A DNA stretch of 64,000 nucleotides from contig OZ365115.1 of assembly GCA_977030845.1 (NCBI GenBank), positions 1,922,001 to 1,986,000 of the forward strand, given 5' to 3'. Position numbers: made by a program. Of the stretch, positions 1-57,000 are shown in pieces (position 1 is the stretch's first letter; the number at the start of each line of letters is the position of its first letter). Origin of the DNA: Fimbriosthenelais zetlandica (taxonomy: Eukaryota).

Positions 1-3000
1 GTTCACCCGAGTCTGACACAACTCAACCATCTCAAACACGGACACAGCTTCCTACTACCAGAAGGTGGGCTGTCATATCACAATAATGAAAAATCCCATA
101 ATTAATTAAGTCATAAGAGTACTTCTTTAACGAATAAGTATGTTTTTCCAAAACGTTTTTAGAAATGAAAAAATCACAGCTTCCTACTACCAGAAGGTGG
201 GCCCTTAATATGTCACATTTACCCACATTTACTACCATTTGTATATTTAAATATGAAGGAAAAGTCCAATAAATAATTAAGTAATAAGAGTATTTCAGTA
301 ATGAATAAGTATGTTTTTCCAAAATGCTATCAGAAATGAAAAAAATCACACTGGAAAAAATATAAATTTCTAGAAATATTTTCTGTGTCATTTCCCTGGT
401 ATTTCATTTATGACATATTACGAATTAATTTGGATATAAAACTTTGATTTGTTTAGGACTTTGCCTGCTGCGGCCCAGCACTAAGTTAGTGGAACTAGTG
501 GCACAGGCCATCAACGACAGCCCTGACGGTATGCTGCAAGTACAGCAAGTCTACATAGCTCTACAGTAAGTCATCCTGCTAACTGGAACAGTTATACAAC
601 GAGAGAGTGAATGGATGAGTGAGCGAGTGGGTGAGTGAATGAATGAATGAATGAATGAATGATCAAGCGAGGGATTGAGCGAGCGAGGGAGAAAGTAAAT
701 GATTGGAAGAATGAATGGATGAATGAATGAAGGAAGGAAGGAAGGAAGGGATGAATGAAAGAAGGGAGGAATGAATGAATGAATGAATGAACAATTGAAG
801 GAGTGAATAAATGTATGTTTTCAAGTAACTAGTCTACATTTAGATAGTTTTGGATGAATGGATTTTGAATCGTTCAGAATTGTTTTTCTCTCCTGACTTG
901 TCTTGTTAGATTGAGGGACAATTCATTCATGATTGAACCAACTGAATGTTGATCATTAAATGAAAGTTAAACGTAATGTTTTCAGAAATAAGTACCCGTA
1001 CTTTCAGTACATGGACCGGTGTTCTACGACCAGCTGGAGAGTGAGCTAACTAACATGACGTCTTTACATTTTACTGCCAAATTATTTATGTATTCCTTAA
1101 CAAATTTCATCAGTTGTTCAATGTTTTCTTCATTATCAAATGAACCGGAGATTTTCCACTCTTCACCCATCATTTTTTCTCTTTGAGATGGTTGGAATTT
1201 TGTCCCATACTTTCAGTTGAAAGTGAACGAGTTCTAGGTCAGAATAAATTCACCAAATTCAACATATGAATATGACTAACTGAAATATGAAATTTACGCA
1301 CACAAAACAGAATCCGAAACATATCTTTTTAAGTTCACTGTTCATATATTTAGAGTTGAGATTATAAATCTTATTGAGACTAGGCTTGGACCCAGCCAGC
1401 GTCAAGTAGATTGAAGTATTCTGGGTGTTAATTCAGTGTCGCGTGTTTTTCTTGCGTATTAATTGATGTATAATTTTTATAATATTTTTAATATTTTTAA
1501 CAAATAATTTTTCTGTCTTGTGTTATAATTTCTCTATCATTGATGTATAATTGTTTTTCTTGTCTTGTATTATAATGTCTCTATCATTGATGTATAATTG
1601 TTTTTCTTGTATTATAATGTCTCTATCATTGATGTATAATTGTTTTTCTTGTATTATAATGTCTCTATCATTGATGTATAATTGTTTTTCTTGTATTATA
1701 ATGTCTCTATCATTGATGTATAATTGTTTTTCTTGTATTATAATTTCTCTATCATTGAACACAGAGTTCCATCCGGCACGCGCTGTATCAGAAGTGGTTC
1801 AGGAAGATTCAGTTTGATACAGAGCTCATCAACTGTCGCGGCTGTTACTGGGCGATCAACCGGAGATTCCACCCCCGGGAATGGACCTTACCGCCCAACA
1901 GGTTCGGTCCCGACGAAGGTGAGAGCTTAACACTTCAAGTTCTTGAGTTTTTTTTATTTTTTTTTTTTAATAATTAATTTCAATAGCCTTATTATTTATA
2001 CCAATATCATTTATACAATATATTTCCAGGCGGCCATTCTATCCGTTTCTATATCACACAGACAATTATGTACAACTTAATTAAAATATTTTTCCAAATC
2101 ACTTTTCTTTTCACTTTTCTAGTTTCTGAAGGTTATGAAGAACAAGATGAACCAGAAGATCTGAGCATCGCCACGATGATCAGCGCGGCGGAGAACAACG
2201 ACAACGACAACGACGACGACACGGAGTATGCTGATACAGAGCCCATAGATTATCATAATCCTGTAAGATATTAATTTTGAAAAAATCAGGGAATTTCAAC
2301 ACTGACTCGGAACGATAATTTTTTCGGCGATTGACGCGTACTATCCCATACCCGCTACTGAAGTTAAAATATCTCCTGGAATTTAGGGGATTACTCAGGG
2401 AAAACTCAGGGAATTCTGGTTTCATTCAATTTACAATTTGTTGGACCTATTATGTAGAGTATTTAACATGAATGTTCCTGTATGTTTTAGAGCACCGCGG
2501 CCATACACCCACTAGATCTGTCACCAGTCAAGGAGTCAGTTAGTGAGTCGGTGAGTCAGGGCTTTATACCATGCCCCCGGGACTCGCTCAGTGAAGGGTT
2601 TCTGCCCCACCCCCAGGACCCGCTCAGTGAGGGGTTTATGTCGCACCCCCTGGAATCCTTGACGGAGGGGTACCTGCCCCGACCCCGGGATCCTGACCCC
2701 ATGCTCTCCCCGCAGGACGAGGTCGCCAGCTCTCAAGACGAGCTGGACAAGGCGCCAAAAACCACCAAAAACGGTACCTATACTAAAATATTATCCTTAA
2801 ATAATCTTAAAAACGGTACCTATATTCATATATTATCTCTAAATAATCTTAAAAACGGTACCTATATTCATATCATCTCTAAATATTGTCAATTATTATT
2901 CTAAATCATTCTTGTAGTCTCTGCCGAGATTGTACAAAATATAAAATTCTGATCTCTTCAGAAATTGCACAAAATTGAAATTTATAAATATTTTTAAACT

Positions 3001-54000: not shown

Positions 54001-57000
54001 GCGCATGGTTTGAAGAGCGTCTTCCACTCTCCACTGTTGTGTTTAGGGAAGGAGAGCGGGCGGACTTTATACGTGGTGTACTGTAATGCTTCAGGTGGCC
54101 AGGCTGAGAGCTGGAAAACATAACGTGAATAACGCATTAATAACAGATTAATAACAGGCTGAGAGCTGGAAAACATAACGTGAATAACGCATAAATAAGA
54201 TAAATAACAGATTAATAACGCATAAATAACAGATTAATAAATTAAGACATGAATAACGTATATGTCAGGATTAGGAAGAAACAAGCTATCAACACACAAA
54301 GCTCTGCTCTTATAGAATGGCAACGATATTCTTTTACATATATACTCAGCACTGAGAGAGAGAGAGACATGGCTGGCCCTTTACATGCCTCTCACAACAA
54401 ATTATGAGAGACATGGCTGGCCTTTGATATCAGTTAGCAGCACTGAGCAAAGAAGGGTAATGGCAAATTTGAAGAATAACATAACGTCATTTTATAGTCT
54501 ATCCGCATAGCTTACACAAAGTGGGGTAGCAGTAATCGTTTTTTTCTACCCACAATGTCTGTGAGGAGAAATGAATGTTTTCTGTGCTTCTGTGGCCGCC
54601 CGCCCATTTATTTTTATGAGAGGAAGAATGGCTGAGTGCATTAAGGAGTTTTGTGTTGGTAATTAAATAGCACGACCTGACCGTACTACTGGCTACAACT
54701 ACAGGCATTTCATAACAGATATTATAACCATATGAAACGTGACGCCCAGGTATTAAAGCCGGGACTCCACTGCTGCGATTTTGCTTGCGACACGACTGCG
54801 ACAAAGGTGATGCTTGTGAAGTTGTGTAAGAATAAAATTTATAAATTATGGTTCAAGTATCTAAGGCCTTAAGGCCAATGGTACATTTATCATTGAAACA
54901 CAAGCATCACCTTTGTCGCGGACGTGTCGCAAGCAAAATCGCATCAGTGGAGTCCCGGCTTTATTCTTGCATCAAAATATTTACATCACATTTGTGTTGT
55001 TTCACATCAATATATCTAAATCAAAGCATAATGCCCTGAATGCCTGGAGGCATCAAAGACCAACACAGAGCTTCATAGTGAAGGCTGCCGCGTCTCAGAT
55101 GTAAACCACTGCTTCTACCCTTATAAAGGCAGGCCCACACTGAGGCGATTAAACCACTGCTTCTACCTCTATAAAGACAGGCCCACTACAAAATCTTTGT
55201 TGGTCTATGGAACATTTTGTTGCGGCTAAGCTGGAAGGATTTGCCATAGATCTCCAAAAGATATATTTCAAACACTGGCACAGAATTAGACTGGCACAAG
55301 CCTTTGATTCTTTTATTATGGTAAAATTAACCAATAATAAAACTTAGCATTTTGATACCATTCCTGAGGACTATGCCTCAGGAGGAGGCACGATTAAGTC
55401 ACAAGGACGAGCGCTCGTCTAGCAATGTATGAAGACCAAATATACGTTGATATTTGTCGTTGGCATTCCATGGACACTTGTATGTGTGGGCCATGCTTTA
55501 CACGTACACTCTGGCTCATAGAATTTAAGTATTTATGGAGTGAGAGTGGAGCCTGGGGACATGGGAAAGTGTGATGGGGTGAGGTAGGTGGAGGTGGGGG
55601 GCGGGGAGGTGGGAGGGGGGGGGGGGAGGGTGTTGTAGTGTGTACAAGATACATTTTTATATTCGCATACACAGGGTTCTGACTATTTCAATGGAGGTAG
55701 GCTTCCCTGATGGTTTGCCAAAATTCCAGGATGATTACCTGGACCTAATTCTATTTTAGGCATCTTCAATTTAGTCCACTAGTTAAACTAACATGGACCA
55801 GGTTCCCTGATTTAAGGCATTTTTATACATCAAAATCCGTGATTTTTTCACTGGAATATGAGAAGACTTTCCCCCTGATTTTGCCGGATTGCTGGGAAGG
55901 TATAGGGGAAGGGGGGGGGGGGGGAGGTAGGGGAGAGGGTGGGAAAGGTAGGGGAAGGGATGGTTAAGTATATACATGGTATAAGTGTTGATAATATTGC
56001 CCCCCTCTCTACCTTCCCCACTCCTCCTCCTCCTCCTCCAGCCCCTCCAGCTAAACCATACAACACAAAGATGACGTTATGAATAATTAAAACGAGAAAA
56101 AGCGGCGGGAGTAGGGATTAACTTCCCATAGACGCGTCCTCATATTAGCTCTATATAATGTATACAGTAAACTCACATAATATAGGCGGTAATGGACCGT
56201 AAACTCATAGAATAAAATGGCAAGTAATTGATCGTAAACTCTCTTATAAATAATACAGCATTATTTACCGTAAATTCTCATAATAATATATACACTAATA
56301 TATACTGGAAATTCATGTAAAATAGCCACACAAATATAGCCTCTATCAAAATCAACAAGGTGAACTTTTAAGTCCAAGTTGTAACAGTGCTCAACGAAAT
56401 TGCCAGTTTATTTTGGGTGAATTAAGGTAATATTTTGGGATGTGAGATGTAAATATTTGATACCATATTTCCAGTGTAATGTGATACAATATGGGTTTGT
56501 GTACCTGATGTTTGGATCGTTTAGACCTAACAAAGTTAAGACAGGATCAGATCTAACAGCATTAAGACAGGATCAGATTGATCCAGCTCAGGTGCTACTC
56601 AGTACACCTCATTTAGACGCTAGAAAGAAAAACTCATTAATTTAATAATATACACCGACATTCCATCAATATGTACATTCCATCAAGGCCGCATGAGCGG
56701 AGGATGGAATAAGACATCAATGTTATATGATCTTAACAGCTGAGCTTCATCAAGACACCAAACAATAACATGTAGACATCAGTCAGCAATACAAAACACT
56801 GAGATGTCAAACAACACCTCATATTACCGTAAAGTCTATAATAACACCTCATATTACCGTAAAGTCCATAATAACATCACACATCAACTCTCTCCCCCAG
56901 TGCTGTTAGCTGACAAGCCATGTATCTACTATACCATCTGCACTGAGTAAAGTGAGAGGTATTGAGTGACATGCAAAAGGCCAGCCATGTCTCCTACTGT

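What the first reader, a model, noticed from the sequence alone, without database searches (positions are those of the whole stretch)
44..54200. Window-wide enrichment of tandem duplications centred on splice junctions
Seen: at least 15 separate events include a splice site plus adjacent exon sequence. FOX donors (44/176, 2767-2862, 3340-3903); SLC5 donor 22691-22945, acceptors 23235/23363/23491 and 25126/25226; GH3-2 donor 38430-38560; MYG1 donor 39463-39836 and acceptors 33826-33860; JMJD7 acceptors 44735-44802; GXYLT donors 49378-49674 and 53110-53380, acceptors 49791-52570 and 54110/54160, exon end 48350/48450. The units are unrelated in sequence, so this is not one transposon. Inference: a mutational process targets exon-intron borders in this genome and could drive intron growth, intron gain or new alternative splice sites.
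Basis: seen in the sequence. Interest (0 to 1): 0.65.

Follow-up and report, generated by a model that had tools for sequence, protein, structure and literature searches.

The report
Splice-junction minisatellites ("mirages") in introns
Many introns in this animal genome window carry tandem repeats whose unit includes a splice site plus a few exon bases, a structure already described in lancelets as "mirages"; these repeats visibly lengthen introns, and only the expanded ones sit at exon borders more often than chance.

Summary
The tandem repeats are real. I found further cases: a PLEKHF donor array, four arrays that stop 1-11 nt from a junction, and four arrays that contain a stop codon.

They match the "mirage" minisatellites reported for amphioxus Adh3, globin, TnC and PGBD5 genes. 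The kind is therefore known. I could not determine the organism.

Enrichment is modest and depends on the null model.
- 12 of 34 intron-context TRF arrays span a junction.
- Expected counts are 6.8 (P=0.016), 5.4 of 70 window-wide (P=0.006), or 9.5 under the harshest null (P=0.2).
- Two-copy duplications show no excess: 3 of 17, against 2.8-4.0 expected.
- Expanded arrays carry the excess: 9 of 17 against 4.0-5.5, and 6 of 9 arrays with five or more copies.

Intron growth is shown directly: 4.8 kb of extra junction copies, 83% of one intron. Intron gain has no support. Alternative splicing could not be tested. A border-targeted mutational process is not needed for the births. Why border arrays expand more is unexplained.

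The parts
43..350 (+). FOX donor duplication, 2 copies (offset 132-171 bp). Each copy has the exon end plus CAGAAG|GTGGGC.
   Evidence: 2 exact motif copies; not found by TRF
2767..2873 (+). FOX donor array, 42 bp x2.5. The unit holds 7 nt of exon plus GTACCT. It is in frame and open.
3339..3904 (+). FOX donor array, 93 bp x6. The unit holds 54 nt of exon plus GTCAGT.
13565..13682 (+). PLEKHF donor array, 60 bp x2. It starts 1 nt before GTGAGT.
22691..22944 (+). SLC5 donor array, 33 bp x7.7. The unit holds 4 nt of exon plus GTAAGA.
23179..23543 (+). SLC5 acceptor array, 128 bp x2.8 with nested 20-21-bp acceptor units. The unit holds the acceptor plus 53-57 nt of exon 7.
25087..25246 (+). SLC5 acceptor duplication, about 100 bp x2. 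The unit holds the acceptor plus 20 nt of exon 12.
38433..38561 (+). GH3-2 donor array, 46 bp x2.8. The unit holds 38 nt of exon plus GTAAAT. It is absent from paralogue GH3-1.
39464..39843 (-). MYG1 exon-3 donor array, 29 bp x13, with CAAG|GTAACG.
   Evidence: exon by Pfam
33570..33877 (-). Inside MYG1 intron 3: a copy of the donor array (42 bp x4-5) and two decoy copies of the exon-4 acceptor plus 19-20 nt of exon 4 (33851-33832 and 33811-33793).
29301..39845 (-). Two tandem copies (4.5 and 6.0 kb) of nearly the whole of MYG1 intron 3. Each copy holds a GH3 gene on the + strand. The unit runs from the donor array to 20 nt into exon 4.
44732..44806 (+). JMJD7 last-exon acceptor array, 22 bp x3.3. 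The unit holds the acceptor plus 5-9 nt of exon.
49379..49678 (-). GXYLT-like donor array, 20 bp x15, with CCAG|GTGAGT.
49793..52528 (-). GXYLT-like acceptor array, 46 bp x59. The unit holds the acceptor plus 32 nt of exon. It makes up most of a 3.5 kb intron.
53105..53376 (-). GXYLT-like donor array, 44 bp x6. The unit holds 20-21 nt of exon plus GTCAGT. The exon-side copy is seen only with looser TRF settings.
54100..54240 (-). GXYLT-like acceptor duplication, 55 bp x2.1. The unit holds the acceptor plus 11-12 nt of exon.
48349..48474 (-). Ambiguous 2-copy repeat at the end of the last recognised GXYLT-like exon. It could be a donor or the CDS end.
26498..26630 (+). SLC5 array, 25 bp x5.3. 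Its first unit holds the last 7 codons and the stop.
33392..33492 (+). GH3-1 array, 17 bp x5.9, holding the stop codon. The paralogous array lies at 39265-39353.
44887..44945 (+). JMJD7 array, 19 bp x3.1, holding the stop codon.
30136..30496 (+). GH3-1 intron-1 array, 28 bp x13. It ends on the A of the acceptor AG and is absent from GH3-2. Other abutting arrays: 1504-1758, 24059-24155 and 26156-26197.

Best explanation
These are "mirage"-type minisatellites: local head-to-tail duplications whose unit straddles a coding border.

**Which borders.**
- Nine units carry an exon end plus a 5' splice site (8 found by TRF, 1 by self-blastn).
- Five carry a 3' splice site plus an exon start (4 by TRF, 1 by self-blastn).
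- Three further independent units carry the last codons plus the stop codon.

**How they arise (inferred).** Ordinary replication slippage or unequal exchange produces them. The genome makes minisatellites at a very high rate, 72 arrays in 64 kb, and has short introns, so a 20-130 bp duplication often crosses a junction by chance.

**Why they are tolerated.**
- Shown by the sequence: only one copy is contiguous with the rest of the exon. That copy is the first donor, the last acceptor or the first stop.
- Inferred: this copy still gives the normal mRNA, as was shown experimentally for the human F7 IVS7 minisatellite.
- All other copies lie inside the intron or the 3' UTR as silent decoys.
- Duplications inside exons are removed by selection. 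Only 2 exonic arrays are left in 10.5 kb of exon.

**What follows.** The arrays then expand and lengthen introns. In this window the border excess comes from that expansion or persistence stage, not from the first duplication. The cause is unknown.
For: **Anatomy of the arrays:**

**Decoys are intact.** Every copy within 2 mismatches of the real 9-nt junction motif keeps its GT or AG. None has lost it, across 16 arrays.

**Literature.**
[quoted passage not shown] - A passage of PMC3902484 reports the same for PGBD5, Adh and TnC.
- The abstract of PMC1557585 reports that, among identical repeated donors in human F7, only the most upstream is used.

**Chance expectation.** The median intron is 239 nt. 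A uniformly placed unit spans a junction with mean probability 0.20 (6.76 of 34).

**Where the excess lies.**
- Two-copy arrays: 3 of 17 span a junction, against 2.79-4.02 expected.
- Arrays above 2.5 copies: 9 of 17, against 3.97-5.46 (P=0.002-0.04).
- Arrays with 5 or more copies: 6 of 9, against 1.58-2.69.

**Stop codons.** Four stop-codon arrays show that no splice signal is required.

**Recent turnover.** The GH3 paralogues are 94.4% identical over 1,847 nt. They differ by arrays at a donor (38433) and at an acceptor (30136).
Against: - The organism is not identified, so membership of the amphioxus phenomenon rests on structure alone.
- There are no RNA data, so which copy is used is inferred.
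- A pure "uniform birth plus filter" model does not predict two findings. Junction arrays have more copies (median 4.2 against 2.2, P=0.03) and higher identity (94% against 87%, P=0.02) than intronic arrays. Array edges cluster within 11 nt of junctions (11 against 4.93 expected, P=0.005).
- Unit GC content does not explain the extra expansion (0.34 against 0.37; Spearman rho=-0.02).
- The splits by copy number and by score were chosen after seeing the data. The sample is one window.
Confidence: 0.7

Rival explanations
1. One reading: a mutational process breaks or stalls DNA specifically at exon-intron borders, for example through bound splicing factors or polymerase pausing. Duplications are therefore born there more often.
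For: - Junction-spanning arrays: 12 observed against 6.76 expected (P=0.016), or against 5.42 under the window-wide null (P=0.006).
- Array edges within 11 nt of a junction: 11 against 4.93 expected (P=0.005).
- With TRF score of 150 or more, 11 of 15 intron-context arrays span a junction.
Against: - Two-copy arrays are the nearest thing to births, and they show no excess: 3 of 17 against 2.8-4.0 expected.
- Stop codons carry no splice signal, yet arrays span them too (4 against 0.32 expected).
- Under the harshest null, P=0.2.
- Leaving out MYG1 intron 3 and the nominal GXYLT-like intron gives P=0.087.
Confidence: 0.2
2. Selection favours multiplied splice sites or longer introns. Possible uses are splicing enhancers, back-up sites, regulated alternative splicing or recursive splicing.
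For: - All decoy GT/AG dinucleotides are intact (0 lost).
- Junction arrays have more copies and higher identity.
- Two of the 6 acceptor-side units read AG|GT: the GXYLT-like 46-bp unit and the MYG1 exon-4 decoys. These could act as both site types.
- The FOX 42-bp unit is in frame and open.
Against: - Copies are 92-97% identical, so the arrays are young. Intact sites are expected without selection.
- Of the other donor units I read, those of FOX (93 bp and 132 bp), PLEKHF, SLC5 and MYG1 meet an in-frame stop. The 20-bp GXYLT-like and 46-bp GH3-2 units shift the frame.
- The stop-codon arrays have units of 25, 17 and 19 bp, which are not multiples of 3. They therefore do not form in-frame back-up stops.
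Confidence: 0.1
3. There is no real enrichment. The genome is dense in minisatellites and has short introns, and the reader noticed the arrays that lie beside exons.
For: - If ancestral introns were all 218 nt or shorter, 9.48 of 34 arrays are expected to span a junction against 12 observed (P=0.2).
- 22 of 34 intron-context arrays and 32 further arrays lie away from annotated borders.
- My stratified tests were chosen post hoc.
Against: - The trend with array score is monotonic and holds even under the harshest null: P=0.029 at score 100 or more, and P=0.007 at 150 or more.
- Stop-spanning arrays: 3 independent against 0.32 expected (P=0.004).
Confidence: 0.2
4. The arrays are copies of a mobile element (an introner or MITE) or artefacts of assembling two haplotypes.
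For: PMC3087553 notes that one mirage was mis-assembled in a draft genome. The window also holds a dispersed 44-bp satellite family and one inverted repeat.
Against: - Units are built from the local exon and intron sequence and are unrelated between loci (1 of 153 pairs).
- Copies carry their own substitutions and nested sub-repeats.
- Sixteen or more loci are affected.
Confidence: 0.03

Closest known systems
[quoted passage not shown] Reported for Adh3 (Canestro et al. 2002, NAR 30:2871, not held, known to me only through citations), globins BflGb6/9 (PMC3087553), and PGBD5 and TnC (PMC3902484).
   Same: - The repeats are head-to-tail and the unit spans an exon-intron boundary.
- Units are tens to about 160 bp.
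- Both 5' and 3' boundaries are affected.
- Most copies keep AG/GT.
- Copy number changes quickly; here this is seen between the two GH3 paralogues.
   Different: - The organism is not established here.
- Here the structure is seen in 7 neighbouring genes at once.
- Some units are very short on the exon side (1-7 nt).
- One unit is 4.5-6 kb and duplicates a whole intron with a nested gene.
- The same structure occurs at stop codons. The passages I read do not mention this.
Human F7 intron 7 37-bp VNTR, whose first element spans the exon 7 donor (PMC1557585, abstract read).
   Same: The authentic donor is followed by identical pseudo-donors in a minisatellite. The normal mRNA needs the most upstream one.
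   Different: It is a single locus in human that has been tested experimentally. Here there are many loci, acceptor arrays as well, and no expression data.
Intron gain by tandem duplication of an AGGT-containing exon segment, the Rogers model. PMC3265369 (abstract read); PMC2891723 and PMC4974935 (search listing only).
   Same: Duplicated splice signals are created by local tandem duplication.
   Different: In that model the duplication lies inside an exon and creates a new intron. Here it straddles an existing junction and only lengthens an existing intron. No intron here shows exon-derived ends.
Dual-specific or recursive splice sites in tandem repeats, as in polyubiquitin (PMC10809524, search listing only).
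   Same: Two acceptor-side units here read AG|GT at the repeated site.
   Different: The other four acceptor-side units do not. No evidence of use.

Membership tests
Mirage minisatellites (amphioxus) | Head-to-tail repeats with units of about 10-160 bp | tested here: met
   TRF gives units of 20-128 bp and 2-59 copies.
Mirage minisatellites (amphioxus) | The unit spans an exon-intron boundary, carrying a splice signal plus exon sequence | tested here: met
   12 TRF arrays and 2 further repeats overlap annotated junctions by 1-54 exon nt. Homology supports two of these exon edges: SLC5 exon 7 and JMJD7 exon 8. The GXYLT-like matches were weak.
Mirage minisatellites (amphioxus) | Both 5' and 3' boundaries can be duplicated | tested here: met
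   8 donor and 4 acceptor TRF arrays, plus 1 of each found by self-blastn.
Mirage minisatellites (amphioxus) | Many repeat copies keep the AG/GT signals | tested here: met
   No copy within 2 mismatches of the junction motif has lost its dinucleotide, across 16 arrays.
Mirage minisatellites (amphioxus) | Regular splicing is not disturbed | not testable with these tools
   No RNA data.
Mirage minisatellites (amphioxus) | Length instability between haplotypes or in somatic tissue | tested here: inconclusive
   Only one sequence is available. The GH3 paralogues differ: 13 against 1 copies at 30136, and 2.8 against 1 at 38433.
Mirage minisatellites (amphioxus) | The host is a cephalochordate | not testable with these tools
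Gene content shows only that it is an animal.
Intron birth by tandem duplication (Rogers model) | The intron's 3' end matches the upstream exon end, and its 5' end matches the downstream exon start | tested here: not met
   In 58 introns the best match is 14 of 30, and the means are 8.4 and 7.7 of 30.
Mobile element (introner or MITE) | The same unit recurs at many loci | tested here: not met
   1 of 153 unit pairs is related, and that pair is the two paralogous MYG1 arrays.
F7-type donor VNTR | The first repeat element spans the exon-intron boundary and is followed by identical pseudo-donors | tested here: met
   9 donor arrays. Use of the first site was not tested.

The most novel reading that the evidence does not exclude
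Coding borders (5' and 3' splice sites and stop codons) are true hot spots for the expansion, or the birth, of minisatellites in this lineage. One possible cause is that arrays of factor-bound splice signals disturb transcription or replication. If so, this process would be a genome-wide driver of intron lengthening. It would also duplicate whole introns, including the genes nested inside them.
Probability: 0.25. Interest if true: 0.7.

Novelty: new member of a known kind. Interest (0 to 1): 0.42.

Why it matters
**If the excess at coding borders holds genome-wide.** It would link splice signals, or constraint borders, to repeat instability. It would also give a concrete, datable route for intron growth. 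The mechanism of mirages is described as unclear in the passages of PMC3087553 that I read.

**What the window offers.**
- It gives natural before-and-after pairs, the two GH3 paralogues.
- It shows a case where duplication of a whole host intron produced a new copy of a nested gene.
- The arrays place about 129 intact decoy splice sites beside 15 real ones. That makes them a natural test of how splice sites are chosen.

**For annotation.** Such arrays are traps for gene predictors and assemblers.

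Tried and rejected
- **Six-frame Pfam scan of long stretches.** I replaced it with stop-free ORF pieces, searched exon by exon.
- **No joined CDS.** I never built or searched a spliced sequence. Reading frames were checked by phase arithmetic only.
- **Genes in the unannotated stretches.** Ten ORFs from 7.2-19 kb and 45-48 kb gave no credible Pfam family.
- **Upstream GXYLT-like exons.** A motif scan found none. The intron upstream of 54110 was therefore given a nominal 890 nt.
- **RNA genes.** No tRNAs and no Rfam families were found.
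- **Composition.** It does not explain the extra expansion of junction arrays.
- **Rogers-type intron birth.** No signal.
- **One shared mobile unit.** Rejected.
- **The large MYG1 duplication as evidence for border targeting.** I withdrew this argument. One breakpoint lies in the periodic donor array, so only the exon-4 breakpoint (+20 nt) is informative.
- **Canestro et al. 2002.** Not held.
- **A genome-wide mirage study.** None turned up in searches.

Full report
**What the window is.**
- It is 64 kb with no N and GC of 0.32-0.46. No tRNA or Rfam family was found.
- I annotated nine genes by reading ORFs and splice signals. All protein searches were exon by exon.
  - A forkhead gene lies at 1-4297 on the + strand (weak exon-level Forkhead hits).
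  - An RNASEK / V-ATPase-subunit-f-like gene lies at 6278-7108 on the - strand.
  - A PH+FYVE gene (PLEKHF-like) lies at 12229-14337 on the + strand.
  - An SLC5 transporter lies at 19981-26520 on the + strand. It has SSF hits, and exon 7 matches SMCT1 at E=6e-15.
  - MYG1 lies at 27770-40967 on the - strand. Seven exons tile Pfam positions 1-318.
  - Two GH3-domain genes on the + strand are nested in MYG1 intron 3.
  - JMJD7 lies at 42374-44905 on the + strand.
- A GT8 glycosyltransferase lies on the - strand, with exons at 54110-48449.
- All 58 introns are GT..AG, with a median length of 239 nt.
Frames were checked by phase arithmetic.
- I do not take the window for human. The introns are short, the genes are packed, and the exon matches to human or mouse structures are clearly diverged.
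- The organism could not be identified.

**The observation.**
- TRF gives 116 rows, which merge into 72 arrays. Their extra copies make up 9.5 kb of the window.
- The unit is always built from the local exon end or start plus the adjoining intron. Units at different loci are unrelated (1 of 153 pairs).
- Every copy that still resembles the junction keeps its GT or AG. None has lost it, across 16 arrays. About 129 decoy sites therefore accompany 15 real ones.
- I found further border arrays:
  - a PLEKHF donor array (13565-13682);
  - four arrays that end 1-11 nt from a junction without crossing it (1504-1758, 24059-24155, 26156-26197, 30136-30496);
  - four arrays whose first unit contains the last codons and the stop codon. 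These belong to SLC5, GH3-1, GH3-2 (inherited with the gene duplication) and JMJD7.

**Is it more than chance?** The key point is that the introns are short, so a 20-130 bp duplication often straddles a junction by accident.

| Test | Observed | Expected | P |
|---|---|---|---|
| Null A: arrays collapsed to one unit, unit placed uniformly in its own intron, every junction-spanning placement viable | 12 of 34 | 6.76 | 0.016 |
| Null A, spanning or within 11 nt of a junction | 16 of 34 | 9.23 | 0.005 |
| Null A, an array edge within 11 nt of a junction | 11 | 4.93 | 0.005 |
| Null A, introns capped at 218 nt (median of array-free introns) | 12 of 34 | 9.48 | 0.20 |
| Null A, without MYG1 intron 3 and the nominal GXYLT-like intron | 10 of 32 | 6.63 | 0.087 |
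| Null A, uncollapsed intron lengths | 12 of 34 | 4.28 | 0.0003 |
| Null B: uniform over all collapsed non-exon sequence, splice junctions | 12 of 70 | 5.42 | 0.006 |
| Null B, stop codons | 4 | 0.32 | 0.0003 |
| Null B, stop codons counted as 3 independent events | 3 | 0.32 | 0.004 |

- Self-blastn adds two more junction-spanning two-copy repeats and one intronic one.
- The overall excess is therefore about 1.3- to 2.8-fold and is not robust on its own.

**Where the excess sits.** These splits were chosen after seeing the data.

| Subset of intron-context arrays | Spanning a junction | Expected | P |
|---|---|---|---|
| 2.5 copies or fewer | 3 of 17 | 2.79-4.02 | no excess |
| More than 2.5 copies | 9 of 17 | 3.97-5.46 | 0.002-0.04 |
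| 5 or more copies | 6 of 9 | 1.58-2.69 | 0.0004-0.019 |
| TRF score 150 or more | 11 of 15 | 4.19-6.08 | <0.0001-0.007 |

- Of the three arrays with 5 or more copies that do not span a junction, two abut an acceptor.
- Junction arrays have more copies than purely intronic arrays (median 4.2 against 2.2, P=0.03), longer units (45 against 23 nt) and higher identity (94% against 87%, P=0.02).
- Unit GC content does not differ (0.34 against 0.37) and does not predict copy number.
- First duplications therefore look uniformly placed. Border arrays look more expanded or longer-lived.

**What it does.**
- Intron growth is shown directly. Junction arrays add 4,825 nt, against 1,553 nt from the other 22 intronic arrays.
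- The nine annotated introns that carry a junction array have a median length of 796 nt, against 225 nt for the other 49.
- A 4.5-6 kb tandem duplication copied nearly all of MYG1 intron 3, from the donor array to 20 nt into exon 4. This made the second GH3 gene.
- Since that event (94.4% identity over 1,847 nt), new arrays have arisen at a GH3-2 donor and at a GH3-1 acceptor.
- No intron shows the exon-derived ends expected of birth by duplication.
- Decoy use cannot be judged without RNA.
  - The FOX 42-bp unit is in frame and open.
  - The other donor units that I read either meet an in-frame stop (FOX 93 bp and 132 bp, PLEKHF, SLC5, MYG1) or shift the frame (GXYLT-like 20 bp, GH3-2 46 bp).

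**What is known.**
- Passages of Ebner et al. [quoted passage not shown]
  - They cite Canestro et al. 2002 for Adh3 and further loci.
  - They state that splicing is not disturbed and that the mechanism is unclear.
- A passage of PMC3902484 reports the same at lancelet PGBD5 and cites Adh and TnC.
- The abstract of PMC1557585 shows that, in the human F7 IVS7 minisatellite, only the most upstream of identical donors is used.
- The abstract of PMC3265369 shows intron birth by a segmental duplication.
- I found no genome-wide test of mirage enrichment.
- Canestro 2002 is not held. The supplements are closed.

**Verdict.**
- The structures are real and belong to a known kind. If the host is a lancelet, as the structure suggests (inference, untested), these are new loci of a described phenomenon.
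- Two patterns remain unexplained and need a genome-wide test: the extra expansion of border arrays, and the arrays at stop codons.

Noticed in passing
26498-26630; 33392-33492; 39265-39353; 44887-44945: These tandem arrays start in the last codons, and their first unit contains the stop codon. They belong to SLC5, GH3-1, GH3-2 and JMJD7. Four are seen against 0.32 expected. For JMJD7, homology to solved structures ends 7 codons before the stop, so the array lies in an unconserved tail.
   Followed up: partly
29301-39845: Two GH3-domain genes (+) are nested in MYG1 (-) intron 3. The pair arose by tandem duplication of almost the whole host intron. The exons are about 94% identical.
   Followed up: yes
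49230-49328; about 54300-54450; 56963-57634; 60900-61005: A dispersed family of 40-44-bp tandem units recurs at four places, in an intron and in unannotated sequence. It is unrelated to the junction arrays.
   Followed up: no
about 54790-55000: A long inverted repeat, MITE-like, lies upstream of the first recognised GXYLT-like exon. The upstream exons of that gene were not found in the window.
   Followed up: no
2574-2654; 25589-25628: These are the only two TRF arrays that lie inside exons. One is an in-frame 36-bp (12-codon) repeat in the FOX gene. The other is a 21-bp x1.9 repeat in the SLC5 loop exon.
   Followed up: no
22950-22992; 39444-39467: Just past two donor arrays lies a partial copy of the interior of the upstream exon: SLC5 exon 6 and MYG1 exon 3. 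This suggests older, larger duplications that were later remodelled.
   Followed up: no
whole window: 10 of 58 donor sites read GTCAGT, which is a high share for this variant. AATG-type microsatellites recur in introns (601-817, 42725-42895).
   Followed up: no
19664-19924: A 41-bp x6.3 array ends 57 nt upstream of the SLC5 start codon. It may overlap the promoter or the 5' UTR.
   Followed up: no
38471-38610 vs 32562-32710: In GH3-2 intron 5 about 100 nt of unique intron present in GH3-1 are missing, and two extra exon-end-plus-donor units take their place. The intron content was replaced without any net growth (140 against 149 nt).
   Followed up: partly
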